Assembly: GCA_034423015.1 (NCBI GenBank)
Contig: DAOUJG010000063.1
Coordinates: 112,865 to 176,864 of the forward strand
DNA length: 64,000 nt
From: Dehalococcoidia bacterium
GTDB lineage: Bacteria; Chloroflexota; Dehalococcoidia; Lucifugimonadales; JAGWBF01
Direction: 5' to 3'
Shown: positions 15-18,178 of the stretch, piece after piece
How positions within the stretch are numbered: the first letter of the stretch is position 1
Layout of the letters: the number at the start of each line of letters is the position of its first letter
The notes under the pieces: generated by a model
Told to the model about the DNA's origin: nothing
What the model saw: the letters and a program-made list of their open reading frames with translations, nothing else
The model's database searches: none
Made by a program: the position numbers and the translations under genes

Positions 15-1223
15 CTAGCGACAGCGCGGCAGATCCAGATACGAAAGGTCATTCCGCTCCACCTTCCCTAGACCGCTCGGAATGCACCCGCTCAACTCAT
101 TCCCGCCGAGATGCAGCAATTCCAGATTTGGCAGGGCGCCCAACTCAGGCGGTATCTCCCCGCTCAACTGATTCACTTCGAGGTTCAGGTTCACAAGATT
201 AGACAGGCTGCCCAACTCGGGCGGTATCTCTCCACTCAACTGATTGAATCGGAGATACAGCTCTTTCAGGTTGGACAGGGCGCCCAACTCAGGCGGTATC
301 TCACCGCTCAACTCGTTCACGTTGAGGATCAGACTTTCCAAGCTGGACAGGGCGCCCAACTCAGGCGGTATCTCACCGCTCAACTCATTCCCGCCGAGAT
401 GCAGCAATTCCAGATTTGGCAAGCCGCCCAACTCAGGCGGTATCTCACCGCTCAACTCGTTCACGTTGAGGATCAGAAATACCAAGCTGGACAAGCCACC
501 CAGCTCCGACGGTATCTCACCACTCAGCTCATTTTCGTTGAGGAACAGCTCTTTCAGGTTGGACAGGCCGCCCAGCTCCGGCGGTATCTCACCGCTCAAC
601 TCGTTGAAGCTGAGGGAGAGCTCTTTCAGGTTGGACAGGCCGCCCAGCTCCGGCGGTATCTCACCGCTCAACCAATTGTTGTGGAGGGACAGCACTTCCA
701 GGTTGGACAGGCCGCCCAGCTCCGGCGGTATCTCACCGCTCAACCCATTCGAGCCGAGGTGCAACTCTTCCAGGTTGGACAGATCGCCCAGCTCCGCCGG
801 TATCTCCCCCCTCAACCCATCCCAGAAGAGGAACAACTCTATCACGCGCCCGCTGCTGTCAGTGGTTACGCCGTGCCACTCCCCAACGGGAGCGTCGCTC
901 AGCCAGTTGTCGCTGCTATGCCAGTCGGCTCCTCCAGCGGCTTCGTAGAGGGCCTCCAGCGCAGCCCTCTCTTCGGCCAGCGTGGACGCCGGCGCAGGCG
1001 TTTGCGCCGGAGACTCCGTGGGCACGGTCGTAGGCGTTTGCGCCGGAGACTCCGTGGGCGCGGTCGTTGGCGTTTGCCCTGAGCTCGCAGCCGACGCGGG
1101 CGTCTGCCCCGGAGACGCCGTAGAGTCCGGTTCACCGGAGCAGGAGGCCAGCAGCAGCGCCGCCACGACAGCCAGCGCGGTCAGAAATGCGAATCGGGAT
1201 ATACTGGTCGTCATCTCTTTCAT
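15..1223 (-). CDS. LRR lipoprotein 1 (lipobox, Pro/Thr linker, plant-type N-cap, 11 x 24-aa LRR, C-cap)
   Basis: Lipobox LLLASC; repeats LxxLxLxxNxLSGEIPPELGxLxN; GGAG 8 nt before the ATG at 1223; TAG stop at 15-17. Confidence 0.92.
   Translation of the reverse strand: MKEMTTSISRFAFLTALAVVAALLLASCSGEPDSTASPGQTPASAASSGQTPTTAPTESPAQTPTTVPTESPAQTPAPASTLAEERAALEALYEAAGGADWHSSDNWLSDAPVGEWHGVTTDSSGRVIELFLFWDGLRGEIPAELGDLSNLEELHLGSNGLSGEIPPELGGLSNLEVLSLHNNWLSGEIPPELGGLSNLKELSLSFNELSGEIPPELGGLSNLKELFLNENELSGEIPSELGGLSSLVFLILNVNELSGEIPPELGGLPNLELLHLGGNELSGEIPPELGALSSLESLILNVNELSGEIPPELGALSNLKELYLRFNQLSGEIPPELGSLSNLVNLNLEVNQLSGEIPPELGALPNLELLHLGGNELSGCIPSGLGKVERNDLSYLDLPRCR
997..1078. repeat. 36-bp tandem repeat encoding the 12-aa Pro/Thr linker of LRR gene 1
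   Basis: ggcgtttgcgccggagactccgtggg at 997 and 1033, partial copy at 1069. Confidence 0.85.
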
Positions 1224-1290
1224 ATGGCACACTCCAGTCTAATGCTGGGTCTCTCTCCGAGGGAAAGAGGGCCCCTACGGGCGCGGACGG
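1224..1290 (-). repeat. 67-bp conserved intergenic spacer, copy 1 (hairpin plus RBS)
   Basis: Near-identical to 2608-2674; ctctttcc/ggagagag stem and GGAG on the minus strand. Confidence 0.85.
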
Positions 1291-2607
1291 CTAGCCGCAG
1301 GGCGGCAGCCCCAGACCCGAGATGTCACTCTGCTCCACTTCTCCGAGACCACCGGGTATGCACCCGCTCAACTGGTTCCCGTTAAGGCGCAGCTCTTTTA
1401 GATTGGGCAGGCCGCCCAACTCCGGCGGTATCTCTCCCCTCAACTGATTCACTTTGAGTTGAAGCCGTTCCAGGTTGGACAGGCTGCCCAGCTCCGACGG
1501 TATTTCCCCGCTCAACTCATTCCAACTGAGGTCCAGGTTTCTAAGATTGGGCAGGCCGCCCAGCTCCGACGGTATCTCTCCGGTCAACTCATTCCCGAAG
1601 ATGTGCAGCAGCTCCAGATTGGACAGGCTGCCCAGTTCCGACGGTATCTCCCCACTCAGCTGATTATTGCTGAGGAGCAGCGACTCCAGGTTGGACAGGC
1701 TGCCCAGCTCCGACGGTATCTCCCCACTCAACTGATTTTGGCTGAGGAACAGCGACTCCAGGTTGGACAGGCTGCCCAACTCCGGCGGTATCTCCCCGCT
1801 CAACTCATTCCCGTGGAGGTCCAGCAATTGCAGATTGGACAGGCTGCCCAACCACGACGGTATCTCCCCGCTCAACCCGGTCCCGCTGAGTCCCAACTCT
1901 TCCAGATTGGACAGGCCACCCAGCCATGGCGGTATCTCCCCGCTCAGCTCGATCCCGCTGAGGCTCAACTCTTCCAGATTGGACAGGTTGACCAACTCCG
2001 GCGGTATTTCACCCCTCAACTCATTGTAGCTGAGGGACAGGCTTCTAAGATTGGACAGGCTACCCAACCACGATGGTATCTCCCCGCTCAACTCGTTCCA
2101 GCCAAGGCGCAGGGTTTCCAGATTGGATAGGCCTCCCAGCTCCGGCGGTATCTCCCCGCCCAACTCATTCCAGCCGAGGCGCAGGGCTTCCAGATTGGAC
2201 AGGCCTCCCAGCTCCGTCGGTATCTCCCCTCTCAACCCATTTTCTTCGAGGTCCAGTTCTATCACGCGCCCGCTGTTGTCAGTGGTTACGCCGTGCCACT
2301 CCCCAATGGGAGCATCGCTCAGCCAGTTGTCGCTGCTTTCCCAGCCGGCTCCCCCGGCGGCTTCGTAGAGAGCCTTCAGCGCAGCCCTCTCTTCGGCCAG
2401 CGTGGACGCCGGCGCAGGCGTTTGCGCCGGAGACTCCGTGGGCGTCGGTGCAAGCGTTTGCCCTGGGCTCGCAGCCGACGCGGGCGTCTGCCCCGGAGAC
2501 GCCGTAGAGTCCGGTTCACCGGAGCAGGAGGCCAGCAGCAGCGCCGCCACGACAGCCAGCGCGGTCAGAAACGTGAATCGGGATACGCCGGTCGCCATCT
2601 CTTTCAT
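1291..2607 (-). CDS. LRR lipoprotein 2 (13 x 24-aa LRR)
   Basis: Same signal peptide, N-cap and C-cap as gene 1; start moved to MKEM (ATG 2607) behind the same GGAG. Confidence 0.92.
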   Translation of the reverse strand: MKEMATGVSRFTFLTALAVVAALLLASCSGEPDSTASPGQTPASAASPGQTLAPTPTESPAQTPAPASTLAEERAALKALYEAAGGAGWESSDNWLSDAPIGEWHGVTTDNSGRVIELDLEENGLRGEIPTELGGLSNLEALRLGWNELGGEIPPELGGLSNLETLRLGWNELSGEIPSWLGSLSNLRSLSLSYNELRGEIPPELVNLSNLEELSLSGIELSGEIPPWLGGLSNLEELGLSGTGLSGEIPSWLGSLSNLQLLDLHGNELSGEIPPELGSLSNLESLFLSQNQLSGEIPSELGSLSNLESLLLSNNQLSGEIPSELGSLSNLELLHIFGNELTGEIPSELGGLPNLRNLDLSWNELSGEIPSELGSLSNLERLQLKVNQLRGEIPPELGGLPNLKELRLNGNQLSGCIPGGLGEVEQSDISGLGLPPCG

Positions 2608-2674
2608 ATGGCGCACTCCAGTCTAATGCTGGGTCTCTCTCTGAGGGAAAGAGGGCCCCTACGGGCGCGAACGG
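2608..2674 (-). repeat. 67-bp conserved intergenic spacer, copy 2
   Basis: Near-identical to 1224-1290. Confidence 0.85.
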
Positions 2675-2858
2675 CTAGCCGCAGGGCGGCAGCCCCAGAT
2701 CCGAGAGGTCACTCCGATCCACGTCTCCGAGATCTCTTGGTTTGCACCCGCTCAACTGATTCTTGCCGAGGCGCAGCGCTACCAGATTGGACAGGCTGCC
2801 CAGCTCCGGTCGTATCCCTCCGCTCAACTCGTTCCAGCCGAGGGACAGATCTCCCAGT
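2675..2858 (-). pseudogene. Orphan 3' end of an LRR lipoprotein (about 1.5 LRR plus complete C-cap)
   Basis: A different frame reads LSLGWNELSGGIRPELGSLSNLVALRLGKNQLSGCKPRDLGDVDRSDLSDLGLPPCG* and has no start or N-cap of its own. Confidence 0.8.
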
Positions 2859-3978
2859 CCACTTCTTCGATACCACCGGGTATGCACCCGCTCAGCTGGT
2901 TTCCGCTGACATGCAGCAATCGCAGATTGGACAGGCTGCCCATCTCCGGTGGTATGTGACCGCTCAGTTGATTGTCGTTTAGCCACAGCAGTTCCAAATT
3001 AGACAGGCTACCCAGCTCCGCCGGTATCTCCCCGCTCAACTCATTGAATCTGAGTCCCAGCACTTTCAGATTGGACAGGCCGCCCAGCTCCGTCGGTATC
3101 TCTCCGCTCAACCCATTGAAGCTGAGAGACAGCTCTTCCAGATTTGACAGGCTGCCCAGGTCCGCCGGTATCGCTCCGCTCAATTGATTATTGCCGAGGG
3201 ACATGTCTTCCAGATTGGTTAGGCCGCCCAACTCAGGCGGTATCTCACCACTCAACTCATTCTCAAAGAGCGACAGCTCTTTCAGGTTGGGCAGGCTGCC
3301 CAGCTCCGGCGGTATCTCACCGCTCAGCTTATTGAAGCTGAGGAACAGCGTTTCCAGGTTGGACAGGCCGCCCAGCTCCGGCGGTATCTCACCGCTCAAC
3401 CGATTATTGGCGAGAATCAGCTGTTCCAGATTGGACAGGCTGCCCAGTTCCGGCGGTATCTCACCGCTCAACTCATTCCCGGCGAGAGTCAGCTGTTCCA
3501 GATTGGACAGGCTGCCCAGTTCCGACGGTATCTCACCACTCAAATGATTATTGCCGAGGGCCAACGTTTCCAGGTTGGACAGGCCGCCCAGCTCCGGCGG
3601 TATCTCACCACCCAACCGATTTTCTTCGAGGTCCAGCTCTATCACGCGCCCGCTGGCGTCAGTGGTTACGTTGCTCCATTCTCCAAGGGGAGCGTCGCTC
3701 AGCCAATTGCGACTGTACCTCCAGCGGGATCCCCCGGCAGCTTCGTAGAGAGCCTCCAGCGTAGCCCGCTCTGCTGCCAGCACGGCCGCTGGCGCAGGCG
3801 CCTGATCCGGAGACTCCGTCGGAACGGTCGTCGGCGTTTGCCCTGAGGTCGCAGCCGACGCGGGCGTTTGCTCCGGAGACTCCGCGGAATCCGGCTCACC
3901 GGAACAGGAGGCCAGCAGCAGCGCCGCCACGACAGCCAGCATGGTAAGCATCCGTTTGGTCATTTCCGCTATACGCAA
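2824..3978 (-). CDS. LRR lipoprotein 3 (11 LRR), C-cap cut short by a frameshifting junction
   Basis: Lipobox LLLASC and LRRs; ends GCIPGGIEEVD then unrelated residues instead of the DLxxLxLPxC cap. Confidence 0.85.
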   Translation of the reverse strand: MRIAEMTKRMLTMLAVVAALLLASCSGEPDSAESPEQTPASAATSGQTPTTVPTESPDQAPAPAAVLAAERATLEALYEAAGGSRWRYSRNWLSDAPLGEWSNVTTDASGRVIELDLEENRLGGEIPPELGGLSNLETLALGNNHLSGEIPSELGSLSNLEQLTLAGNELSGEIPPELGSLSNLEQLILANNRLSGEIPPELGGLSNLETLFLSFNKLSGEIPPELGSLPNLKELSLFENELSGEIPPELGGLTNLEDMSLGNNQLSGAIPADLGSLSNLEELSLSFNGLSGEIPTELGGLSNLKVLGLRFNELSGEIPAELGSLSNLELLWLNDNQLSGHIPPEMGSLSNLRLLHVSGNQLSGCIPGGIEEVDWEICPSAGTS

Positions 3979-4406
3979 CCTGCCTCGTCGAGCACCTCTA
4001 GGAGAACCTTCTCGGCCTATCCATGGTGGTATTGTCGTCGCCGTCGTTCCCGTCGCTTCGCTGGACCCAGGAGGATTTCGTTTCGATCATTCTCCAGTGG
4101 AGCAATCCTGGCAGTCCTCATCTCCCACTGGATTCTCAGTAGTCAGCTCTACCGACAATCGGAATGATCGCAGTTATGGCGGCGATCATCGCCAGAATGA
4201 TGGCGAACTCTATACCCAGGAGCGCCAGCCCTGTAGATCACTTCACTTATCTTCCAGGGCGTGTGCGCCAATACGGCCCAGGCGTCTCTTATTCGCGCCG
4301 GACCCAGCCGCACCTGTAGTCACCCGTTCTTCCTGTGCGGAAGCCAAGCGAACACTTCCCGACCGTGTCGCGGGCATACTCCCCCCAGAGGATACCACCG
4401 CATGCA

Positions 4407-4454
4407 TAACAGAGGGATAACAATTTGCGATAAGTTCAGTAACAGCTTGTAACA
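4407..4454. promoter_or_regulatory. Candidate OmpR/PhoB-type direct-repeat operator (4 x TAACA)
   Basis: TAACA at 4407, 4418, 4440 and 4450 (spacing 11/22/10) in an AT-rich patch upstream of the wHTH-containing regulator. Confidence 0.55.
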
Positions 4455-4528
4455 GTTCGCGGAATCCGGCATAATTGCCCCTGTAGCCGCCCATTCACTC
4501 TCCATAGGCAGACCATCGAGGTGACCAG

Positions 4529-6895
4529 TTGAAGAGACGGGACGAAGTGATGAGAGAGAACGATGCCCTGCGGGAGCGCCTTTCGCGCCTGAGCAGGGCC
4601 AGCCTTCGCATCACCGAAGACCTGGACTTCAACGCCGTGCTCCAGGGGGTGGTGGACAGCGCACGGTCGCTCACCTCCTCGCGCTACGGCGCGATCACCG
4701 TCACTGGGGAGGGCGGACACACGTCCGACTTCATCGTCTCCGGAATGACCAATGAGGAGCATCAGGGGCTCTGGAACATGCCGGAGGGTCTGGGGTTCTT
4801 CGAGTACCTCAGCGGCCTTACCGAGCCCCTGCGGGTCTCGAATATCGACAATCACCTGAGAGAGCTGGGTATGCCGGAGTTCTCGCCCTCCGTCCCGGTG
4901 ACCTCCCTACTGGTGGCTCCGATTCGCCACGGAAGGGGCTGGGTCGGCACCATCTTCCTGGGCCACGATACGCATGACCGGGAGTTCACCCAGGAGGATG
5001 AGGAGACGCTGGTGCTCTTCGCCTCCCAGGCGGCGATGGCCATCGCCAACGCCCGCAGGCATCGGGAGGAGCGGCGGGCCAGGGCAGACCTGGAGACGCT
5101 GGTGGACACCTCCCCGGTGGGCGTGGTGGTCTTCGACGCCGCGACCGGAGCCCCGAAGTCCTTCAACCGCGAGGCCATGAGGATCGTCGATAGCCTCCGC
5201 GACCCCGGGCAGTCCCCCGAGGACCTTCTCACCGTGGTGACCTTCAGGCGGGCCGATGGGCGGGTGGTGTCGCTGCGGGAGTTCCCGGTCGTGGAGGCGC
5301 TGCGCTCGGGCGAGACGCTGCGGGCCGAGGAGGTGGTCATCAACGTACCGGACGGGCGGAGCGTCACGCTGCTGCTCAACGCGACTCCCATCGTCTCGCC
5401 CGAGGGCGAGATAGAGTCGATGGTCGTCACCATGCAGGACATGGCCGACGTGGAGGAGCTGGAGCGGCTGCGGGCGGAGTTCCTGGCGATGGTGAGCCAC
5501 GAGCTGAGGACTCCCCTGACCTCCATCATGGGGTCGGTCACCGCGATCATGGACGCGGGTACGGACCTCGACCCCGCCGTGGTCCGCCAGTTCCTCCGCA
5601 TCATCGGGGACCAGGCCGGCAACATGAACGCCCTGGTCGCCGACCTTCTGGACGTGGCCCGCATCGAGACGGGCGAGCTGCCAATCGGTCCCGAGCCCGC
5701 CGAGGTTGCCGTGCTGGTGGACCGGGCGAGAATCGCCTTCAAGAGCGCGGGAGGCGGGAACGACCTTGCCATCGACATCGAGCCCGGCCTGCCCCTGGTG
5801 ATGGCGGACAGGCGGCGCATCGTCCAGGTGCTGGTCAACCTGCTCTCCAACGCGGCCCGGCACTCCCCCGAGTCGTCGGTCATCAGGATGAGCGCCGTGC
5901 GGGACGGCGTTCACGTGGCGTTCTCAGTGGCCGACGAGGGGCGGGGCATCCCGGCCGAGAGCCTGCCCGATCTGTTCCGCAAGTTCTCCGGGGTGCAGAC
6001 CGAGGAGCAGGGAGGGGACACGGGCCTGGGCCTCGCCATCTGCAAGGGCATCGTGGAGGCGCACGGGGGCCGCATCTGGGCCGAGAGCGACGGGCCGGGA
6101 GCGGGGGCGTGCTTCACCTTCACGCTGCCGACGGTCGAGGACTCCGGGGGCGGGCTCCCTTCGACATCGACGCGGCGTGACCGGATTGCGGAGGAGAAGA
6201 GGCCGCGCATCCTGGCGGTGGACGACGACCCCAACGACCTCCGCTACGTCCGCGACACCCTCGCCAAGTCTGGCTACGACCCGGTGGTGACCGGGGAGCC
6301 GGAGGAGGCGGTCCGCCTCGTGGCCGACGAGAGGCCGGAGCTTGTGCTGCTGGACATGATGCTCCCGGGTACGGACGGCATCGAGCTGATGAAGGACATC
6401 CTCGACGTGGCCGACGTGCCGGTCATCTTCCTGTCCGTCTACGGGCGGGAGGAGCTCATCGCCAAAGCCTTCGACACAGGGGCCGCCGACTACGTGGTCA
6501 AGCCCTTCTCGCCCACGGAGCTTTCGGCGAGGATCAGGGCTGCCCTTCGCCGGAGGGCCGCCGCGGAGCCGTCGGAGCCGTACGTGCGTGGCGACCTGAC
6601 CGTCGACTACTCAGGGCGCAGGGTGGTCCTGGCCGGGCGTCCCCTGCATCTCACGCCGAATGAGTACGGGGTGCTGGCCGAGCTTTCGGCCAACGCCGGG
6701 CGGCTGGTGACCTACGAGCGCCTCCTGAATCGGGTCTGGGGCGAGAAGAATGATGGGGATGTGCGGACCCTACGCACCACCATCGGCAGGCTCCGCCGCA
6801 AGCTGGGCGACGATGCGGACACCCCCACTTACATCTTCAACGAGCCCCGCGTCGGCTACCGGATGCCGGAGAGGGAGGATGACTCCGAGGGGTAA
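4529..6895 (+). CDS. Single-chain hybrid sensor kinase/response regulator: GAF-PAS-HisKA-HATPase-REC-OmpR-type wHTH
   Basis: H-box VSHELRTPL, N-box NLLSNA, G-boxes DEGRGI and GLGLAI, receiver VDDD...LLDMMLP...KPF, C-terminal LTPNEY...RLRRKLG...VGYR; no obvious TM helix. Confidence 0.92.
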   Translation: MKRRDEVMRENDALRERLSRLSRASLRITEDLDFNAVLQGVVDSARSLTSSRYGAITVTGEGGHTSDFIVSGMTNEEHQGLWNMPEGLGFFEYLSGLTEPLRVSNIDNHLRELGMPEFSPSVPVTSLLVAPIRHGRGWVGTIFLGHDTHDREFTQEDEETLVLFASQAAMAIANARRHREERRARADLETLVDTSPVGVVVFDAATGAPKSFNREAMRIVDSLRDPGQSPEDLLTVVTFRRADGRVVSLREFPVVEALRSGETLRAEEVVINVPDGRSVTLLLNATPIVSPEGEIESMVVTMQDMADVEELERLRAEFLAMVSHELRTPLTSIMGSVTAIMDAGTDLDPAVVRQFLRIIGDQAGNMNALVADLLDVARIETGELPIGPEPAEVAVLVDRARIAFKSAGGGNDLAIDIEPGLPLVMADRRRIVQVLVNLLSNAARHSPESSVIRMSAVRDGVHVAFSVADEGRGIPAESLPDLFRKFSGVQTEEQGGDTGLGLAICKGIVEAHGGRIWAESDGPGAGACFTFTLPTVEDSGGGLPSTSTRRDRIAEEKRPRILAVDDDPNDLRYVRDTLAKSGYDPVVTGEPEEAVRLVADERPELVLLDMMLPGTDGIELMKDILDVADVPVIFLSVYGREELIAKAFDTGAADYVVKPFSPTELSARIRAALRRRAAAEPSEPYVRGDLTVDYSGRRVVLAGRPLHLTPNEYGVLAELSANAGRLVTYERLLNRVWGEKNDGDVRTLRTTIGRLRRKLGDDADTPTYIFNEPRVGYRMPEREDDSEG

Positions 6896-6940
6896 GCGGC
6901 GTTGTAGGTCCTTATGGATTCAAAGGGAGGGTGGAGACAA

Positions 6941-7390
6941 ATGAGATCGACTCTGTTGGAGTTCATACCCCGCATGGCGCTTATGGCGGTGATTGCCCTG
7001 GCCGTGGCAGCCTGCGGCGGCAATGGTGAGGAGACGGGGGCTGCTCAGGACGCAGCAACGTCGGCGCTGGCCGCGGAGTCTGGCACGCCCGCTCTCCCGC
7101 TCGACACACCGGCCCCGACCGCCAACGAGACTGTCCCTGGGGGGATAGAGGATGCGGCCCGCAAGCTCCTGGCGGACGAGTTGGGAGTAGGCGAGGGCGA
7201 CTTCACGCTCGATAGCTCCGAGGGGATGGGATGGTCCGACGCCAGCCTTGTATGCCCGAAGGAGGGCTTCATGTACGCCCAAGTCCTCACTCCGGGCTAC
7301 AAGCTGGTCTTCGATCTCGCGGGCACGTCAGACGCCGTGCATACCAACTCCGACGCCTCACACATGGTGATCTGCGGAGACGGGCAGTAG
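6941..7390 (+). CDS. Lipoprotein with WxDxSLxCP...Q..TPGY...HT...C domain of unknown function
   Basis: Strong RBS before ATG 6941; lipobox LAVAAC; paired Cys motif recalled from uncharacterised Chloroflexota/cyanobacterial lipoproteins. Confidence 0.75.
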   Translation: MRSTLLEFIPRMALMAVIALAVAACGGNGEETGAAQDAATSALAAESGTPALPLDTPAPTANETVPGGIEDAARKLLADELGVGEGDFTLDSSEGMGWSDASLVCPKEGFMYAQVLTPGYKLVFDLAGTSDAVHTNSDASHMVICGDGQ

Positions 7391-7500
7391 TTTGCGGAGG
7401 ATGCGTTGAGACTCAAGATTGAGGACATCCCCATCACGAAGGAGTTCAGGCGTGAGAACGATAGTCCTCACTGTATGACTGAGCACGCAGTACGCGTTTA

Positions 7501-7773
7501 CATCTCCCGCCGCCGCCCCACACTCATGGACCGGACCTCTCCGCCAAGAAATCCCGCTCCACCTTCAGCTGGCCGATCTCCTGGTACAACCGGGCCACCA
7601 GGGCGGCCTCATTCTTGGCCTTCTTCTCCTGGCCGTTGCCGAAGACGCCAGAGGCCCCTTCTATGAAGGCCTTCTTCCAGGTCTGAATCTGGCCCGGGTG
7701 CACCTCGTACCGGGCGGCCAGCTGGGCCACCGTATCCTGGCCCTTCACTGCCTCCAAAGCCACCTTGGCCTTG
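7501..7773 (-). mobile_element. IS3-family remnant (5'-truncated orfA plus first codons of orfB)
   Basis: KAKVALEA...VHPGQI..WKK...LYQEIGQLKVERDFL HTH transposase motif, followed by overlapping MSVGRRREM that then stops resembling orfB. Confidence 0.8.
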
Positions 7774-8156
7774 TTCGCGCATGCAGGCAGGCAGGGCCAC
7801 ACCGCGGCCTGCCGCCTCTCATTCAACCCGGTCTACATCTCATTCGGCTGTCCATGAGAACCGTAGTCTTCTGTCGATTGGAGGACGGACAACGAGGAGC
7901 AAGCCAGGGAGGAGGCTTGAGAGACGCATGGATAGGGGTGACTCGGTCTCCGACGGCCGCTGGGACTTGTATCACCGCCAGCTGGCGCAATGGGATCAGG
8001 AGAGCGAGGGGCTCCAGGGGTGTGCCACCTTGTATTTAGACACGAGCACTGTTCCCAGGCTCCTGCATGGGGTCCCTGCCAATGCTCGTGAGAATGGTGG
8101 GGCAATGATCTTGTCGGTCTTGCCGGTGCCACAAGACCGCCCAGTGAGGTAGAAGA

Positions 8157-11821: not shown

Positions 11822-12394
11822 TCATTTGGGCCTGTGGACACTGGGTAGCCCGATGAATCCTTCAGCCATGCCCCAGCGGTCTCGCTTGGAAGCGATGTAT
11901 GCAGCTACCGGGCTGGTTCTGTCGATGCCGGCACTGCAATGCACGAGCACTGGCTTGGGCAATTGGTCGAATGCTCTCAAGACCCTCTCCTTGTCATCTT
12001 CGGACGGCTCTTGGTAGTCAGCCATTGGGATATGGCGAAACTCGAACCCTTGCGAACGATAATACCCATACAGCCCATCAGGATGCAGTTCGAGTCCGCC
12101 TCTGATGTAGTACTTCTCGTGCTGAGCTTCTTCAAGTAGGCTCACAATTGAGCGAATTCCTGAAGACCTTACCTGTTCAACCCAGACTTCGACGAGTGTC
12201 CTAGCCTCTGGAGGCAACGGGTTACGTCCTCCATAGTCGGGATGGTCCCGAAGTGGCCGCGTTGAACACGCCAAGCTTCCGTCCAGTAGCCAAACTAGAA
12301 GCTCCGAATCGTTTCCTACTTGACTGCGAAATCTAGTGCTTCGGATCTTTGCCCGAATCCCCTTGGTCAACTCTGCCAATTCCATAAGGTGCAA
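11822..12394 (-). CDS. Protein-tyrosine/dual-specificity phosphatase family protein
   Basis: CX5R P-loop VHCSAGIDRTS; general-acid region IPMAD. Confidence 0.88.
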   Translation of the reverse strand: MHLMELAELTKGIRAKIRSTRFRSQVGNDSELLVWLLDGSLACSTRPLRDHPDYGGRNPLPPEARTLVEVWVEQVRSSGIRSIVSLLEEAQHEKYYIRGGLELHPDGLYGYYRSQGFEFRHIPMADYQEPSEDDKERVLRAFDQLPKPVLVHCSAGIDRTSPVAAYIASKRDRWGMAEGFIGLPSVHRPK

Positions 12395-12410
12395 TTTGCT
12401 CCAAGATCGC

Positions 12411-14183
12411 TTAGCTTGAAGGGCGGGGCCACACCTTCGTTATCGTCTCCGCCAACGCCTCGCTCCGTTGTTTGATGGCGGTTTCATCCCAACGATCGGA
12501 GGCTGAATCCAACACTTCCTTGTTGAGCATCAAAGTGCTAAAGGTATCCAATGCCCGCCGCTTGTCCCCCCATGAACGGTTGGACATCGACGAGTTCAGC
12601 GCTCTTGTTGCTAGGGTCAAGTTACCAATAAGGCCAATATGCTCCTTGCGCAATTCCTCTGCTCGGGCCTCGTCAATGTCTTGGTGAGGGAAAGGCCACC
12701 CATCCGAAGTCCAGCGCTGGGGCATCAAATGCTCTACAGTGAGGTTTGTCGGGACAGCTAGTTGTTCAGTCATGGATGGTCTCTTGCTAAGCTCGATGGT
12801 TTCCAGGATCATCTTACGCCTGGCCGCGTTCCCCGGCATCGGCCTCATGGACAGATAGTCTATTACCTGCTTGTCGTCTGGCCAGGTCCGATTTTCCGCG
12901 GTCTGGCTGACTAGGTAGTCAATAAGCACTTGATTGGCGGGCTCCTGCGTGTGTTGTGCCAAATGACTCACCAGTTCGATGAACAGGGCGTTAAGCCCCT
13001 GAGTACCCAAGTTGCATAGCACCCGCCGGACGAGAAAGCTTTCCACTGCACGAACCGCAGACTGCCGCTCTTGGTCGTTGATGTCCTGGGTGTAAAGCCA
13101 GAGCAGTGGCGGCATGACGACGCTTATTTCCAAGACCTTAAGGCGCTTCAGGATGTCGTCTATTCCCGGTTGTCTGTTTTCTTCGATGTTCTTGTAGACC
13201 ATGCCGACATTCCGCACATCTACGGCCACAGCTTCAATCGTCCGCTCTGTCTCTCCCACATACCTCCTAAAGGCTGCGGCCGTGCGATGCATTTGGACAT
13301 ATTCACGAAGGCGCATGATACACCAGTAGTTGAGGAAGCGGTCCAGTTGTATCTGAAGAACCCGCCCGCGGCTTTCCTCCTGCCTCCACCAGTCGTCTTC
13401 AAACATCCCCCAAAGCGTACGTGCCTTGGTTTCGTCATCAATTAGGTCGGCTTCGTACATCACCGTGTTCTTGATGTAGTCGGCCTGTTTGAGGGGTTCG
13501 CCTCGACTGTTCAGTATCTCAAAGGTGAAGTGGGGTTGGTCTCCCTTGTCCAGCTCTATGGTGGCAACTTTCAGATACTTCTTCACAACGTCGTAGAGCG
13601 CGTGTGCTCGGGCATCGACATGCACCGGATCCTCATTGAGCCAATTCGTTACCCACTCGCGCAGGTGCGAGTAAGCTTCAACTATGGGCCTCGACGGCCG
13701 ATTGGGGCTTAGTCTACCGTTGATAATGTCCTGGAAGTCCGCTTGGTCCAAACGATTTGACTGACGCATCTTCGTGGCATTTAGGTGGTCTCCGCCCGTA
13801 AGCGAATCCCTGTTGAATAGGTAGTCACGGAGGGAAGCGAAGTCCGACGTATCCACCAGTGCCGCCGTAAACGCCCCATCCAGGACCTTGATAAGCAGCT
13901 GCAGAGTCGTCAGGCGCTGCTGGCCATCGACGATCAAGATTGGCTGTACTTCGGAGAGCGGCGCGTCGCTCTCTCGCGGCTGCACGACTATCGCGCCCAT
14001 GAAGTGTAGGCGCACGTCCGATGCGCTCGGTGCCTTCAGCAAATCCTCCGCGACTTTCTGGACGTCGTCCCATAGAGCCTTCCACTCCTCATTCCCCCAG
14101 GCATACGGACGTTGAAATACTGGAATCCGATAGGACACGTCACGGTCAAACAGATCTTTCATGCCCATGATGCTCGCTTCCAT
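12411..14183 (-). CDS. GmrSD-family type IV restriction endonuclease (DUF262 + DUF1524/HNH)
   Basis: IPVFQRPYAW, VDGQQRLTT, FEILNSRG (DUF262); TVEHLMPQ...GNLTL...N...N (DUF1524); AAGGAG RBS. Confidence 0.93.
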   Translation of the reverse strand: MEASIMGMKDLFDRDVSYRIPVFQRPYAWGNEEWKALWDDVQKVAEDLLKAPSASDVRLHFMGAIVVQPRESDAPLSEVQPILIVDGQQRLTTLQLLIKVLDGAFTAALVDTSDFASLRDYLFNRDSLTGGDHLNATKMRQSNRLDQADFQDIINGRLSPNRPSRPIVEAYSHLREWVTNWLNEDPVHVDARAHALYDVVKKYLKVATIELDKGDQPHFTFEILNSRGEPLKQADYIKNTVMYEADLIDDETKARTLWGMFEDDWWRQEESRGRVLQIQLDRFLNYWCIMRLREYVQMHRTAAAFRRYVGETERTIEAVAVDVRNVGMVYKNIEENRQPGIDDILKRLKVLEISVVMPPLLWLYTQDINDQERQSAVRAVESFLVRRVLCNLGTQGLNALFIELVSHLAQHTQEPANQVLIDYLVSQTAENRTWPDDKQVIDYLSMRPMPGNAARRKMILETIELSKRPSMTEQLAVPTNLTVEHLMPQRWTSDGWPFPHQDIDEARAEELRKEHIGLIGNLTLATRALNSSMSNRSWGDKRRALDTFSTLMLNKEVLDSASDRWDETAIKQRSEALAETITKVWPRPSS

Positions 14184-14495
14184 CTCGCTTCTCCTTACTG
14201 CAAGCTCTCCATTTGGACTCTAGCTACTGGAGCGACTCCCATCGTCTATAGCCTCCCCAGTCGTTGGTCCGTAATCGCCAAATAGGACGGGTCAATGTCG
14301 GCACCGATGAATGCGCATCCCAACTCCCCCACCACGATGGCAGTAGTCCCGCCGCGAGAAACAGGTCGCAGACGACCAGCCCCGCGAAGACGCGAATATC
14401 CAGCAAGGGGTTGAATCCCCCTTCATTCTGGCCCCATTCGTGATAGCGGGTATCTTGGGATGTCAGAACCGGCGCGGTAACGACATCAAAGTCAG

Positions 14496-15455
14496 CTAGA
14501 CTCCGGACTTTCGATGCAAAGCCTTCGCAGGGACCACCTGGCCGGTGACCTTGATGGCGCCCCCGGTGGGCACGAACCCGGAGAAGAGCTCGGGATGCAG
14601 TATCTCGGCCATGATCTCCAGGCCGTCGATGAGCCGCGGCCCTGACCTGCTGAAGTAGGCGCTGGCATCCACCACGAACACTCTGGATTGCTCCACCGCG
14701 GGGAGAGAGCTCCAGCCCTCCCGCTCGGTGAGCAGGGACACCTCCTGCAGCGCACGCTTGGCGTCGAAGCCGCAGGGAGTGACCAGTATCACCTCGGGAC
14801 GGGCCTCGAGGACCCGTTCCCACTCGATGCGAAACGACGGAGTGTGCTTGTCGCCCAGGACGTCCTCGCCCCCGGACATCTCCACCATCTCGGGCACCCA
14901 GTGCCCGGCCGCCAGCACCGGGTCCATCCACTCGAGGCACGCCACCCGGGGCCTCGTGTCCGCCAGGGCCGCCCTTGCCTCGACCGCCTCCACCCTGCGG
15001 CTCAGGGAGCCGGCGAACCGTTCCGCCTCGTCCCGGGCCCCCGTGGCGTCGCCCACCTTCAACACGTCCCCTATCACGTCGCCCACCGAGCTGGGGTCCA
15101 GGGACAGTATCTCCGGCTTCCTGGCCAGGGTCTCAGTTGCGTCGGCAACCTGCCGCGCGGTTATCGCTCACTCTCCGCATAGCTCCTGGGTGAGGAGCAG
15201 GTCGGGTTCCAGCTTCTCCAGAAGCTCCACGTCGATGTCGTAGATGCCCTTCCCCTCGGTGAGCCGCTCCTCGATGATCCGGTGTATATCGCCGCTGGAG
15301 TAGTCGCCGTCCTGGAAGATGCTGTGCACGATCCAGGGCAGCTTCCGGGCCTCGGGCGGGTAGTCGCACTCGTGGCTCACACCGAGCAGATGGTCGCCCA
15401 GACCCAGGGAGTAGACGATCTCCGTGGCGCTGGGCAGGAAGGAGCAGATGCGCAT
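14496..15455 (-). CDS. BtuF-like (cobalamin-binding-type) protein without signal peptide, 319 aa, in-frame UGA at codon 96 (candidate selenocysteine, CxxU)
   Basis: MRICSFLPSATEI...HECDYP...TQELCGE[TGA]AIT...LEW...PCGF...FSRSGPRL; ORFs 15168-15455 and 14496-15086 share one frame; real stop is TAG. Confidence 0.85.
15134..15152 (-). promoter_or_regulatory. Candidate bacterial SECIS hairpin (BtuF-like gene)
   Basis: CA(G)GUUGC-CGAC-GCAAC-UG at +16 to +34 after the UGA; loop G at +25. Confidence 0.6.
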
Positions 15456-15664
15456 CGGACCTCCTCGCGTCGTCGGCCGGGGCCGGCTACCCGCCATTAT
15501 GCCACGGCAGGGGCCCGATTGGTAGGAGCATGACAATCGACGCCATGCGGCCATCGGGCCTTGCGGGCATCCGGCGTTGTTGGGGCCGCCGCCATGTATG
15601 GTATAGTGTTGGCGGCCCGCCCACCCCGGCTGCAGGCCGGGCGCTCGGCCCAGACCCCTCTCGG

Positions 15665-15709
15665 CCCGACCAGCGTACCCCAGACCGACGTACCCCCGAC
15701 CAACGTACC
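15665..15709 (+). repeat. 3 x 15-bp tandem repeat in the leader of the LVIVD gene
   Basis: cccgaccagcgtacc / ccagaccgacgtacc / cccgaccaacgtacc directly before AAGGAGG. Confidence 0.8.
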
Positions 15710-15717
15710 AAGGAGGA

Positions 15718-16932
15718 GTGATGGCCCAGCAAGGGGAGATACACAACCTCCGTCTGGTGTCCCACAGCGACCTCGGCGGCTTCGGCAACATCGGCGAGGG
15801 CGTGGCCCTTCAGCAGGCCTCCGACGGGCGTCGCGTGCTCTGGCTGGCCCACGAGGGCCCTCCCAAGGACGTGACCGCGGTGGACGTCAGCGACCCGGCC
15901 AACCCCCGGGTGGTCGCCCAGACGGAGCTGCCCCACCAGCAGATCCGGTCCAACTCCCTGGCGGTGGTCGACGACCTGCTCCTGGTGGCCTACCAGGTCT
16001 CGCGGCCTGGGATCTCCGACGCCGGCATGGGCGTGTACGACATCTCCAGACCCGAGGAGCCCAGGCGGGTAAGCTTCTTCGACACCTCGGGGCCCAGCTC
16101 CCGGGGGACCCACTGCCTCTGGTGCGTCGACGGGCAGTACGCCCACCTGAGCACCGGGGCCGCCGACTTCACGCCGACCGACCCCAAGGACGACCAGTTT
16201 CACATGATAGTCGACGTCGGCGACCCGGCCAGGCCTGCGGAGGTGGGCCGCTGGTGGCTGCCGGGCACACGGGAGGGAGACGACGCCCCTCCGCCGGTCC
16301 GCCATCCGGAGCACGACGTGGGCTACCGGGTGCACAACGTCAACGTCTATCCCGGCCGGCCCGACCGGGCATACCTGGGCTACGTGGACGCCGGCATCGT
16401 CATCCTGGACATCGCGGACCTCTCGCGCCCTAGCATGGTCACCCAGCTCGACTATCACCCCCCACTGACGGGGTTCACCCACACCGTGCTGCCCCTGTTC
16501 GACAGGGGTCTGCTGGTGGTGGCGGAGGAGGCCAGCGAGCACGACAACTGCGAGGACTGGCCCAAGGTCGTGTGGGTGGTGGACTCCAGCGTGGAGACCA
16601 ACCTCGTTATGTTGAGCACCCTGCCCACCGACAAGGACAAGTACTGCGCCATCCCGGGGCGGTACGGGGCCCACAACCTCCACGAGAACCTGCCAGTACC
16701 CACCTCCCACGTTTCCGACACCATCGTGTACAGCACCTTCTTCAACGCGGGCCTGCGGATCCACGACATCTCCGACCCCTTCCGTCCCCAGGAGATAGCC
16801 TACTTCGTGCCGCCGGTGCCCGAGGGAGCCCGGGCCAACTCGGTGAACGACGTTTACGTGGACGAGGGGGAGCTGATCTACACCGTGGACCGGATAAAGG
16901 GCGGCCTCTACATCCTGGAGCCGGCCTGGTAG
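15718..16932 (+). CDS. LVIVD-repeat beta-propeller protein
   Basis: Repeated xxxVDVSDP-type motifs; GFTHT and GAHNLHEN; AGLRIHDISDP. Confidence 0.85.
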   Translation: MMAQQGEIHNLRLVSHSDLGGFGNIGEGVALQQASDGRRVLWLAHEGPPKDVTAVDVSDPANPRVVAQTELPHQQIRSNSLAVVDDLLLVAYQVSRPGISDAGMGVYDISRPEEPRRVSFFDTSGPSSRGTHCLWCVDGQYAHLSTGAADFTPTDPKDDQFHMIVDVGDPARPAEVGRWWLPGTREGDDAPPPVRHPEHDVGYRVHNVNVYPGRPDRAYLGYVDAGIVILDIADLSRPSMVTQLDYHPPLTGFTHTVLPLFDRGLLVVAEEASEHDNCEDWPKVVWVVDSSVETNLVMLSTLPTDKDKYCAIPGRYGAHNLHENLPVPTSHVSDTIVYSTFFNAGLRIHDISDPFRPQEIAYFVPPVPEGARANSVNDVYVDEGELIYTVDRIKGGLYILEPAW

Positions 16933-16937
16933 CCGGG

Positions 16938-18143: not shown

Positions 18144-18178
18144 GGAGCCAGCATGACGACGCCCGGAGGACCAGGCCT

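What the first reader, a model, noticed from the sequence alone, without database searches (positions are those of the whole stretch)
4529..6895. A whole two-component system in one soluble polypeptide, divergent from the LRR array
Seen: GAF, PAS, His kinase, receiver and an OmpR/KdpE-type winged helix in one 788-aa chain, with no TM segment. Established: hybrid kinases usually end at the receiver, and kinase-to-DNA-binding fusions are best known as membrane-bound AraC-type HTCS in Bacteroidota. The GAF resembles DosS/DevS GAF-A in spacing but has no His where the heme-ligand motif would be (recalled). Inference: a cytoplasmic self-contained sensor-regulator controlling the head-to-head LRR array and/or the downstream lipoprotein.
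Basis: partly seen in the sequence, partly recalled or inferred. Interest (0 to 1): 0.65.

Follow-up and report, generated by a model that had tools for sequence, protein, structure and literature searches.

The report
Soluble one-protein two-component regulator family
The gene really encodes a sensor, kinase, receiver and DNA-binding domain in one soluble protein; it belongs to a very large, unnamed, uncharacterised family of Dehalococcoidia (SAR202-type) bacteria that carries its own conserved promoter and repeat sites, and its position next to the LRR genes looks incidental.

Summary
ORF 4529-6895 (+) encodes 788 aa with GAF, PAS, HisKA, HATPase_c, REC and an OmpR-type winged helix, all above Pfam cutoffs. 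It has no TM segment and an intact catalytic His324 and Asp609.

The fusion is not an assembly error. Thousands of same-length, same-architecture homologues exist in Dehalococcoidia/SAR202 MAGs, several per genome. More than 100 clusters at 50% identity align end-to-end.

The GAF is DosS/DosT GAF-A-like by sequence (E~1e-18) and by fold (TM 0.8). The heme-ligand His position is Ser here and hypervariable in the family, so the ligand is unknown.

New here: 62 of 85 family members share a promoter (TTGTAA-17-CATAAT) flanked by four TGTRAC-type repeats spaced about 11/21/11 bp. In the window these are RTAACA at 4406, 4417, 4439 and 4449. This element is the only such site in the 64 kb and travels with the gene. 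The best reading is intramolecular His-to-Asp signalling with autoregulation, co-transcribing the downstream lipoprotein gene.

Control of the LRR array is not supported. LRR genes lie within 6 kb in only 13 of 81 loci, with no fixed position and no operator. Orthologues at 75% identity have a RiPP cluster there instead.

This is a new variant of a known kind, of moderate interest.

The parts
4402..4424 (+). Distal repeat pair (sites A and B): ATAACA at 4406-4411 and 4417-4422, 11 bp apart
   Evidence: PWM of the family's -45..-22 block scores 18.2 here, the best hit in 64 kb and exactly 31 bp upstream of the proximal pair, as in the family. RTAACA hexamer positions.
4433..4455 (+). Proximal repeat pair (sites C and D): GTAACA at 4439-4444 and 4449-4454, 10 bp apart; site D overlaps the -35
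   Evidence: The only PWM hit of at least 10 in the window, score 21.0. RTAACA-N4-RTAACA occurs once in the window against 0 in 100 shuffles. Four of the window's nine RTAACA hexamers lie in 4406-4454, all on the + strand.
4447..4475 (+). Sigma-70-like promoter: -35 TTGTAA (4447-4452), 17-bp spacer, -10 CATAAT (4470-4475)
   Evidence: The only promoter-like site in 3900-7600. The same hexamers occur in 62 of 85 relatives, 57 of them with a 17-bp spacer, a median 71.5 nt before the start. The exact composite is almost exclusive to this family across 185,579 genomes.
4518..4524 (+). Shine-Dalgarno GAGGTGA
   Evidence: AGGTG lies exactly 5 nt before the start in 56 of 85 relatives.
4529..6895 (+). 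CDS of the 788-aa fused sensor kinase and response regulator (TTG start)
4622..5050 (+). GAF domain (aa 32-174), DosS/DosT GAF-A type, lacking the proximal His
   Evidence: It is the most variable folded domain in the family (entropy 1.27 against 0.7-0.9).
5093..5443 (+). PAS domain (aa 189-305)
   Evidence: Pfam PAS 1.9e-6. The model shows a PAS-like fold with pLDDT 80-91.
5471..5674 (+). HisKA/DHp domain (aa 315-382); phospho-acceptor His324 codon at 5498-5500
   Evidence: Pfam 4.9e-17. H-box VSHELRTPL; His present in 82 of 85 relatives.
5807..6133 (+). HATPase_c catalytic domain (aa 427-535) with N, G1, F and G2 boxes
   Evidence: Pfam 7.3e-28. N437/N441, D469xGxG473, F483 and G499xG501 are conserved.
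6134..6208 (+). Hypervariable 25-aa tether between kinase and receiver (aa 536-560)
   Evidence: Highest entropy in the protein, 2.23.
6209..6538 (+). Receiver domain (aa 561-670); phospho-acceptor Asp609 codon at 6353-6355
   Evidence: Pfam 7.6e-24. D565/D566, D609 (82 of 85), S636 and K658 (85 of 85) are conserved.
6635..6865 (+). OmpR/PhoB-type winged helix (aa 703-779); recognition helix about aa 744-758
   Evidence: Pfam Trans_reg_C 2.1e-20. KdpE and MtrA E~6e-38. R746, R749, T750 and R756-K758 are conserved.
6941..7390 (+). 149-aa lipoprotein gene of unknown family (the mechanical ORF starts at 6914), probably co-transcribed
   Evidence: A GGAGG-type SD lies before ATG 6941 and there is a lipobox AVAAC. 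No terminator-like site between the genes. Conserved directly downstream in L004, L022, L060, L108 and L109. No Pfam family.
15..3978 (-). Divergent array of three LRR lipoprotein genes (15-1232, 1291-2616, 2824-3978) plus a fragment at 2675-2986. This is a neighbour and is not shown to be part of the system.
   Evidence: Synteny holds only with L108.

Best explanation
The gene encodes a soluble, dimeric, self-contained two-component regulator. It is one member of a very large paralogous family of Dehalococcoidia/SAR202-type bacteria.

Shown:
- The six-domain anatomy, with intact and conserved phosphotransfer residues.
- The absence of membrane segments.
- A DosS/DosT-type GAF that lacks the heme-ligating His.
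- A family-specific promoter with four same-strand TGTRAC/RTAACA repeats at helical phasing, which travels with the gene.

Inferred mechanism:
1. A cytoplasmic small molecule or redox cue binds the GAF (and/or PAS) module. This module is the part that diversifies between paralogues.
2. That sets the kinase/phosphatase balance of the DHp-CA core, which autophosphorylates His324.
3. The phosphoryl group passes over a flexible 25-aa tether to Asp609 of the receiver in the same chain or dimer.
4. The phosphorylated REC-wHTH pair binds as head-to-tail dimers to the two direct-repeat pairs at 4402-4455. The proximal pair overlaps the -35.
5. This autoregulates the gene's own promoter and, with it, the co-transcribed 149-aa lipoprotein gene. 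Whether the effect is activation or repression cannot be decided from sequence.

The neighbouring LRR array is most likely a passenger of the same variable genomic region and not a dedicated target.
For: Architecture and residues. No TM.

Not an artefact and widely conserved:
- More than 120 clusters at 73-81% identity with the same length and domains.
- 223 relatives in species-representative genomes, all Dehalococcoidia/Chloroflexota-type MAGs.
- More than 100 clusters at 50% identity aligning end-to-end.
- 58 of 58 distant members have HisKA, REC and Trans_reg_C.
- At least 8000 further candidates.
- Paralogy within genomes.

GAF: DosS/DosT by sequence and fold, ligand His absent and the position hypervariable. 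GAF is the most variable folded domain.

Cis-element:
- k-mers TGTAAC, CATAAT and GAGGTG are enriched 10- to 100-fold over shuffles.
- 62 of 85 members carry the promoter, 57 with a 17-bp spacer, and repeat peaks fall at +1, -9/-10, -31 and -42 relative to the -35 hexamer start.
- It is the only match in the 64-kb window.
- There are 113 hits in 1.1 Mb of loci against 2 in shuffles, 81 of them at own promoters.
- The exact composite occurs 11 times in 185,579 genomes. Eight are in Dehalococcoidia, six directly upstream of a full-length family gene and one at a locus edge; the other three are chance-level hits elsewhere.
- Nucleotide similarity to the closest relative starts at 4393, at the operator edge.
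- Four of nine RTAACA hexamers in the window cluster at 4406-4454.
- Recognition-helix variants track half-site variants.

Established knowledge: OmpR/PhoB-family regulators bind tandem direct repeats with about 10-11 bp phasing, often overlapping the -35, and commonly autoregulate.
Against:
- That the encoded wHTH, and not another factor or sigma/UP contacts, reads the repeats is inferred only from co-inheritance and phylogenetically confounded covariation.
- The -35-overlapping repeat cannot be separated from the promoter itself.
- 32 further sites in the loci are not in front of intact family genes. Some precede degraded copies and others precede unrelated or no ORFs, so the element is not strictly private.
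- Paralogues in one genome share very similar sites, which raises an unresolved cross-talk problem.
- The ligand is unknown.
- Cis versus trans (within-dimer) transfer, and activation versus repression, are undetermined.
Confidence: 0.55

Rival explanations
1. One reading: the regulator's main targets are the divergently transcribed LRR lipoprotein genes (host-interaction, 'eukaryote-like' genes), controlled from the shared 3979-4528 intergenic region.
For: - Head-to-head arrangement in the window and in the closest relative L108.
- LRR is the single most frequent Pfam family among the two nearest downstream ORFs of family members (8 of 113). fn3, cadherin and LRR proteins recur upstream (8, 3 and 3 of 129).
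- 13 of 81 loci have an LRR gene within 6 kb.
Against: - The association is a minority one, on either side and either strand, with distances indistinguishable from uniform.
- It is lost in 75%-identity orthologues that keep the lipoprotein.
- None of 16 independent LRR loci has a family gene within 1 kb.
- There is no operator-like site near any LRR gene in the window; the only one is 425-475 bp from the LRR start and oriented toward the regulator.
- In L108 about 2.6 kb separates the two.
- ELP genes are generally abundant in sponge-symbiont genomes (PMC6306507), so the baseline is high. That baseline could not be measured here.
Confidence: 0.12
2. The conserved upstream block is only a strong family promoter (sigma and UP-like contacts), or is bound by a different shared regulator, inherited with each duplication. 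The wHTH binds elsewhere.
For: - The hexamers are near-consensus sigma-70 elements with a 17-bp spacer.
- The sequence around the -10 (GGCATAATTGCC) is a near-palindrome that could be another factor's site.
- Orphan promoter copies occur without family genes.
- All paralogues share similar sites although their recognition helices differ somewhat.
Against: - Conservation extends 45 bp upstream of the -35 in a footprint-like pattern: four phased blocks separated by unconserved spacers.
- It persists across paralogues at 65-80% protein identity, where neutral DNA would be saturated.
- The composite is almost exclusive to this family in 185,579 genomes.
- Half-site variants follow recognition-helix variants.
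- The geometry matches OmpR/PhoB-type sites (established knowledge).
Confidence: 0.22
3. It acts as an ordinary hybrid kinase in a multistep phosphorelay. The internal receiver is an intermediate or phosphate sink passing phosphate to an HPt and terminal RR, or DNA binding is inhibited by phosphorylation as in ChiS.
For: - Hybrid kinases with internal receivers usually feed HPt relays (established knowledge; PMC12471899).
- ChiS shows that phosphorylation can diminish DNA binding in a DNA-binding hybrid kinase (bioRxiv 10.1101/2020.01.10.902320).
Against: - The receiver is directly followed by a complete OmpR-type output domain with conserved DNA-contact residues, which is the architecture of a terminal regulator.
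- No other HK, RR or family-related gene is detectable in the 64-kb window by tblastn with this protein.
- The three degenerate paralogues lost His and Asp together, as expected if the two sites work as a pair. This may be a single evolutionary event.
Confidence: 0.12
4. It is a heme-based O2/NO/CO or redox sensor like DosS/DosT, using a different axial ligand.
For: - GAF is closest to DosS/DosT GAF-A by sequence and fold.
- The distal Tyr171 equivalent is Tyr in 71 of 85 relatives.
Against: - The proximal His149 equivalent is Ser in the window and L/G/S/R/V in the family, with His in only 3 of 85.
- The window copy also has Phe at the distal Tyr position.
- There is a 2-residue indel at the ligand loop.
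- The pocket region is the most variable part of the protein.
Confidence: 0.1
5. The fusion is an assembly, frameshift or annotation artefact joining a separate kinase and regulator.
For: None found.
Against: Thousands of independent homologues from many assemblies, including complete long-read chromosomes, have the same length and continuous architecture.
Confidence: 0.01

Closest known systems
Bacteroidota hybrid two-component systems (HTCS, e.g. the Bacteroides thetaiotaomicron polysaccharide sensors)
   Same: Sensor, HisKA-HATPase kinase, receiver and DNA-binding output are in one polypeptide. The family is expanded into many paralogues per genome, each sitting next to variable accessory loci.
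   Different: HTCS are inner-membrane proteins with periplasmic sensor domains and an AraC-type HTH (32 of 33 in B. thetaiotaomicron, as cited in bioRxiv 10.1101/2020.01.10.902320). This protein is soluble, senses through cytoplasmic GAF-PAS and ends in an OmpR-type winged helix. The phylum is also different.
Classical OmpR/PhoB-family two-component pairs (KdpD/KdpE, MtrB/MtrA, PhoR/PhoB)
   Same: HisKA-type kinase core and REC plus Trans_reg_C regulator. KdpE and MtrA are the closest solved relatives (E~6e-38). The predicted direct-repeat operator overlaps the -35, and autoregulation is predicted.
   Different: Kinase and regulator are covalently fused through a 25-aa variable tether. There is no membrane anchor. 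Partner-specificity problems are bypassed by tethering.
Mycobacterium tuberculosis DosS (DevS) and DosT
   Same: The N-terminal GAF is of the same subfamily (28-31% identity, TM 0.8) and feeds a cytoplasmic histidine kinase.
   Different: No proximal His149 equivalent, and Phe at the Tyr171 position in this copy. There is one GAF followed by PAS in place of GAF-A/GAF-B. The kinase is HisKA type, whereas my recollection is that DosS/DosT use the HisKA_3 type and pair with the separate NarL-type regulator DosR (recalled, not tested here).
Vibrio cholerae ChiS (DNA-binding hybrid sensor kinase)
   Same: A hybrid kinase that itself binds DNA and needs no separate response regulator.
   Different: ChiS is membrane-embedded, uses a cryptic non-canonical DNA-binding domain, and is inhibited by receiver phosphorylation (bioRxiv 10.1101/2020.01.10.902320). 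Here the output domain is a canonical wHTH and the direction of control is unknown.

Membership tests
Class I (HisKA-type) sensor histidine kinase | DHp H-box with phospho-acceptor His | tested here: met
   VSHELRTPL, His324. HisKA 4.9e-17. His present in 82 of 85 relatives.
Class I (HisKA-type) sensor histidine kinase | Bergerat-fold CA domain with N, G1, F and G2 boxes | tested here: met
   HATPase_c 7.3e-28. N437/N441, D469xGxG473, F483 and G499xG501 are conserved.
Class I (HisKA-type) sensor histidine kinase | ATP-dependent autophosphorylation | not testable with these tools
   Needs a biochemical assay.
Hybrid histidine kinase | Receiver domain with acidic pocket, Asp, Ser/Thr and Lys, C-terminal to the kinase in the same chain | tested here: met
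   Response_reg 7.6e-24 at 561-670. D565/D566, D609, S636 and K658.
OmpR/PhoB-family response regulator | REC followed by a Trans_reg_C winged helix-turn-helix | tested here: met
   Trans_reg_C 2.1e-20. KdpE, MtrA and BaeR full-length matches at 555-780. NCBIfam MtrA, PhoB and KdpE partial-length hits below equivalog cutoffs.
OmpR/PhoB-family response regulator | Binds tandem direct repeats about 10-11 bp apart near or overlapping the -35 | tested here: inconclusive
   Sites with exactly this geometry are conserved upstream of the family. Binding by this protein is not shown.
Bacteroidota HTCS | Kinase, receiver and DNA-binding domain in one polypeptide | tested here: met
Bacteroidota HTCS | Membrane-spanning protein with a periplasmic sensor domain | tested here: not met
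   No hydrophobic segment, maximum KD19 1.35. The sensor is cytoplasmic GAF-PAS.
Bacteroidota HTCS | AraC-type HTH output | tested here: not met
   The output is Trans_reg_C and there is no HTH_18/AraC hit.
DosS/DosT heme GAF-A sensors | GAF-A fold and sequence subfamily | tested here: met
   E 8e-19 and 9e-15. Foldseek top 13 hits, TM 0.80-0.84.
DosS/DosT heme GAF-A sensors | Proximal heme ligand His149 (DosS numbering) | tested here: not met
   Aligns to Ser119. Family column: L34, G19, S8, R8, V3, H3.
DosS/DosT heme GAF-A sensors | Distal Tyr171 | tested here: not met
   Phe143 in the window copy; Tyr in 71 of 85 relatives.
DosS/DosT heme GAF-A sensors | Heme binding | not testable with these tools
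   Needs spectroscopy of purified protein.
One-component regulators (sensor plus DNA-binding domain, no phosphotransfer) | Absence of kinase and receiver modules | tested here: not met
   Complete and conserved HK and REC modules are present. It works like a one-protein system but is built from two-component parts.

The most novel reading that the evidence does not exclude
Sponge-associated Dehalococcoidia have replaced much of classical two-component signalling with an expanded set of autonomous, soluble one-protein sensor-regulators. Their DosS-like GAF pockets have diversified to read many different intracellular or host-derived ligands. Their near-identical operators couple the paralogues into one cross-regulating network that controls variable accessory islands (surface-repeat 'eukaryote-like' proteins, RiPP clusters, methyltransferase cassettes).
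Probability: 0.2. Interest if true: 0.7.

Novelty: new variant of a known kind. Interest (0 to 1): 0.48.

Why it matters
If the mechanism holds, this is a naturally soluble, single-gene signalling device that combines ligand sensor, kinase, receiver and transcription factor and comes with a defined operator. Such a device is far easier to purify, crystallise and re-engineer than membrane-bound HTCS or split two-component pairs.

It would allow direct study of intramolecular His-to-Asp transfer, and of how tethering relaxes partner specificity.

Biologically, it appears to be a dominant, unnamed regulator family in an uncultured and ecologically important clade (SAR202-type Dehalococcoidia, many from sponge-type MAG sets). 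The ligands of its heme-less DosS-like GAF domains are unknown, so it is a concrete entry point into what these symbionts sense.

The finding also corrects a tempting but unsupported story that it is a dedicated controller of LRR host-interaction genes.

Tried and rejected
1. Conserved leader RNA structure in the roughly 50-70-nt 5' UTR. RNAalifold found 6 weak pairs and no compensatory change. My hand-picked 5' stem had no both-sided changes and did no better than shuffles. Rfam found nothing in 3900-7600. Dropped.
2. Apparent HK-REC-wHTH 'fusions' in Proteobacteria (L092, L093, L096, L098). These turned out to be adjacent kdpD and kdpE genes in different frames, so they are not fusions.
3. 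Transcript evidence.
4. Look-up of the window's own contig. The window protein is not on record.
5. LRR baseline density. The pattern-based scan returned only 16 LRR loci, so genome-wide density and formal enrichment could not be computed. Only the reverse test (0 of 16 with a family gene within 1 kb) and the distance-uniformity test were possible.
6. Small ORFs in the 3979-4528 intergenic region. None is convincing.
7. Taxonomy of distant members through cluster names. Almost no names exist; one is 'Chloroflexota bacterium', and one 40%-identity member lies on the same chromosome as closer copies. The profile search returned only unnamed ENA proteins.
8. Other copies, or any other HK or RR related to this protein, in the window. 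None.
Full report
**Observation.** The window contains a 788-aa ORF at 4529-6895 (+) with a TTG start.

- Pfam finds six domains, all above their curated cutoffs: GAF 32-174, PAS 189-305, HisKA 315-382, HATPase_c 427-535, Response_reg 561-670 and Trans_reg_C 703-779.
- The closest solved relatives of residues 555-780 are KdpE, MtrA and BaeR (E down to 6e-38). Those of residues 301-540 are HK853-type kinases.
- No 19-residue window exceeds a Kyte-Doolittle mean of 1.35, so there is no membrane segment.
- The gene is divergent from an LRR lipoprotein gene (2824-3978, minus strand) across 550 bp. Two more LRR paralogues lie beyond it.

The description is correct in every respect I could test.

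**Not an artefact, and not rare in its lineage.**

- A word-indexed search returned more than 120 clusters at 73-81% identity, all about 790 aa with the same Pfam set. Several pairs lie on the same contig.
- Among one-genome-per-species contigs, 223 stretches encode close relatives. The 80 best are all Dehalococcoidia, SAR202 or Chloroflexota MAGs, a few of them binned as Acidimicrobiia, and ten genomes appear twice or more.
- Eight of 81 loci carry a second copy within 6 kb.
- An exhaustive HMMER search of 1.84 billion representatives found more than 100 clusters (50% identity level) that align from about residue 1 to 781 at 36-70% identity. It also found longer variants with extra N-terminal sensor domains.
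- Of 58 such representatives, 58 have HisKA, REC and Trans_reg_C, 57 have HATPase_c and 52 have GAF. A few carry MEDS, Cache, CHASE2 or HAMP in addition or instead.
- A 40%-identity member lies on the same 4.68-Mb chromosome as two closer copies, so paralogy is deep.
- A profile search gave at least 8000 further same-architecture proteins, none with a curated name. Where sources name close relatives, the names are only 'ATP-binding protein' or 'response regulator'.
- I found no paper describing this architecture class. A paper on ChiS states that DNA-binding hybrid kinases are 'uncommon, but not unprecedented' and cites the AraC-type Bacteroides proteins.

**Catalytic competence.** In an alignment of 85 family members, the following are conserved: the H-box His324 (82 of 85); N437/N441; D469xGxG473; F483; G499xG501; the receiver's D565/D566; Asp609 (82 of 85); S636; and K658 (85 of 85).

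The three exceptions are second copies lying next to a canonical copy (L023, L040, L029). They have lost His and Asp together, and they also lack the family promoter. These three look related, so this may be a single event.

The 25-residue segment between kinase and receiver is the most variable part of the protein (entropy 2.23), as expected of a flexible tether. Among folded domains the GAF is the most variable (1.27 against 0.69-1.00).

**The sensor.**

- Residues 30-180 match DevS/DosS GAF-A at E=8e-19 and DosT at 9e-15.
- An AlphaFold2 model of residues 1-314 (mean pLDDT 80) finds DosS/DosT GAF-A as its top 13 PDB matches, with TM 0.80-0.84 normalised to the target.
- Glu87 and His89 fix the numbering of the DevS chain. 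On that register the proximal heme ligand His149 (PPYHPP) aligns to Ser119 next to a two-residue indel, and the distal Tyr171 aligns to Phe143.
- Across the family the His149 column reads L34, G19, S8, R8, V3, H3. The Tyr171 column is Tyr in 71 of 85.

The family is a heme-ligand-less branch of the DosS-type GAF, and its ligand is unknown. Heme with another ligand is not excluded, but I rate it unlikely.

**A conserved cis-element that travels with the gene.** I aligned the 200 bp upstream of all 85 members on the start codon. This revealed a shared architecture despite only 65-80% protein identity between members:

`...GTGTAACC-n3-cGTnAC...ATTTTCTATGACTTCTTGTAAC-(17)-GGCATAATTGCCCC...about 70 nt...CGAGGTGACGAG-start`

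- The k-mers TGTAAC, CATAAT and GAGGTG occur in 47-58 of 85 sequences, against 3-4 expected.
- Sixty-two members have the TTGTAA/CATAAT pair, 57 with a 17-bp spacer, a median 71.5 nt before the start. TGTRAC-type elements peak at +1, -9/-10, -31 and -42 relative to the -35 hexamer. That gives two same-strand pairs with about 11-bp internal spacing, two helical turns apart, separated by unconserved spacers.
- In the window, the only sigma-70-like site in 3900-7600 is TTGTAA 4447-4452 / CATAAT 4470-4475.
- The family PWMs hit only at 4433-4455 (score 21.0) and 4402-4424 (score 18.2) in the whole 64 kb.
- RTAACA-N4-RTAACA occurs once in the window, against none in 100 shuffles. Four of the window's nine RTAACA hexamers lie at 4406, 4417, 4439 and 4449 on the + strand.
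- In 1.1 Mb of related loci there are 113 strong sites against 2 in shuffles. Of these, 81 are at a family gene's own promoter.
- Of the 32 others, several precede frameshifted or degraded family copies. Some are orphan promoter-plus-leader copies, and a few precede unrelated ORFs.
- The exact composite ACTTCTTGTAAC-N13-15-GGCATAAT occurs 11 times in 185,579 genomes. Three hits are in unrelated phyla, about the chance expectation. Eight are in Dehalococcoidia; six of those are directly upstream of a full-length family gene and one is at a locus edge.
- Nucleotide similarity between the window and its closest relative begins at 4393, at the distal repeat pair.
- Recognition-helix variants co-occur with half-site variants. 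Helices with R749H/I751M go with GGTAAC/TGTTAC. Helices with V752/S753/S754 go with TGTGAG/TGTGAT. Helices with I748/R753/R754 go with GTGACG. The window's T751/G753/R754 type goes with RTAACA. This agrees with self-recognition but is confounded by shared ancestry.

**Neighbourhood.** An all-against-all clustering of flanking ORFs shows essentially no conserved neighbour. The commonest are roughly 275-aa SAM-methyltransferases (15 of 81 loci, often in tandem) with a MarR-like gene (8 of 81).

A Pfam census of the two nearest ORFs on each side gave the following:

| Side | ORFs scanned | Most frequent families |
|---|---|---|
| Upstream | 129 | methyltransferases 13, fn3 8, cadherin 3, LRR 3, DUF11 3 |
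| Downstream | 113 | LRR 8, then scattered families |

- LRR genes lie within 6 kb in 13 of 81 loci, on either side. Their distances are consistent with a uniform spread (KS p=0.47).
- The closest relative (L108, 81% aa) shares the order LRR genes, regulator, lipoprotein. There, about 2.6 kb of tiny ORFs lies between the LRR genes and the regulator, and a defence island lies downstream.
- The next orthologues (L109=L060, and L022, about 75%) keep the 150-aa lipoprotein. Upstream they have an NHLP-type RiPP precursor array with a C39-ABC exporter in place of the LRR genes.
- None of 16 LRR loci found independently has a family gene within 1 kb. Those LRR proteins also occur in Gemmatimonadota, Acidimicrobiales and Caldilineaceae MAGs.
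- Eukaryote-like repeat proteins are a general feature of sponge-symbiont genomes (PMC6306507), so a high baseline is expected. I could not measure that baseline.
- The lipoprotein gene most likely starts at ATG 6941 behind a GGAGG-type SD, 45 nt after the regulator's stop. No terminator-like site lies between them, so co-transcription is plausible.

**Interpretation.** The anatomy is that of a complete two-component pathway tethered into one soluble chain. The most economical mechanism runs as follows: a GAF/PAS-sensed cytoplasmic signal; autophosphorylation at His324; transfer to Asp609 within the chain or dimer; and binding of the REC-wHTH pair to the phased direct repeats at the gene's own promoter. 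The result would be autoregulation of the regulator-lipoprotein operon.

Only the anatomy, its conservation and the cis-element are shown. The flow of phosphate, the identity of the protein that reads the repeats, the sign of regulation and the ligand are all inferred.

**Comparison with known systems.** It works like a Bacteroides HTCS or a covalently fused KdpDE- or MtrAB-type pair. It fails two defining HTCS features (membrane or periplasmic sensing, and AraC output) and two defining DosS/DosT features (His149, and Tyr171 in this copy). I therefore file it as a new variant of hybrid two-component systems, and as a member of an abundant but unnamed Dehalococcoidia family.

**Verdict.** Interest is moderate, at 0.48.

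Noticed in passing
L023:3383-5938(-), L040:3328-5886(-), L029:11301-13721(+): Three family paralogues, each next to a canonical copy, have lost both the phospho-acceptor His (Q or S) and the receiver Asp (G or S) while keeping the overall architecture. They also lack the family promoter. They may be pseudo-kinase/pseudo-receiver partners of the adjacent copy.
   Followed up: partly
L001:1984, L022:1607, L060:1654, L029:10806(-), L017:9336: Orphan copies of the family promoter plus the start of the leader, with no family ORF downstream. They could be relics of deleted paralogues, or promoters recruited for other genes.
   Followed up: partly
L109:3287-7839 (same place as L060 and L022): A divergent array of five roughly 90-aa NHase_alpha/NHLP-type RiPP precursor genes, with an FAD oxidoreductase, an HlyD-like protein and a C39-peptidase ABC exporter, sits directly upstream of the orthologous regulator.
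   Followed up: no
about 15 related loci, e.g. L043:3052-4917, L052:2989-5560, L071:472-3703: Tandem roughly 275-aa SAM-dependent methyltransferase genes, often with a divergent MarR-like gene, are the commonest upstream neighbours of family members.
   Followed up: partly
window 15-3978 (-): Three paralogous lipoproteins with plant-type 24-residue LRRs (LSGEIPPELGxLSNLxxL), plus a fragment at 2675-2986. Relatives at 46-62% identity occur in MAGs of several other phyla (Gemmatimonadota, Acidimicrobiales, Caldilineaceae, Longimicrobiales), which suggests horizontal spread.
   Followed up: partly
window 7524-7826 (-): IS3-type transposase OrfA (HTH_Tnp_1/HTH_28) fragment just downstream of the lipoprotein gene. 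The region looks like a variable or mobile segment.
   Followed up: partly
window 11822-12394 (-): A 190-aa ORF with a dual-specificity/tyrosine-phosphatase P-loop (HCSAGIDRT; Pfam Tc-R-P 8.8e-11) lying at the edge of a low-GC segment (54% against about 65%) at 12-14 kb.
   Followed up: partly
window 4529-4531 and 85 related starts: The weak TTG start codon is conserved in 52 of 85 family members (ATG in 27), behind a strong GAGGTGA Shine-Dalgarno at fixed spacing.
   Followed up: yes
L007, L008, L010, L025, L026 promoters: In the subgroup whose recognition helix has R749H and I751M, the -35 region reads GGTAAC-N5-TGTTACC. That is an inverted repeat in place of the direct repeat.
   Followed up: no
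window 4468-4479 and family -10 regions: The -10 hexamer sits inside a conserved near-palindrome, GGCATAATTGCC, followed by a conserved GC-rich discriminator (CCCC). It could be a second factor's site.
   Followed up: no
L108:5139-7861 and 12192-18181: In the closest relative, about 2.6 kb holding nine tiny ORFs (46-83 aa) separates the LRR genes from the regulator. A defence island (type I restriction R subunit, HicAB, PIN, AAA/SMC-like ATPase) lies downstream.
   Followed up: no
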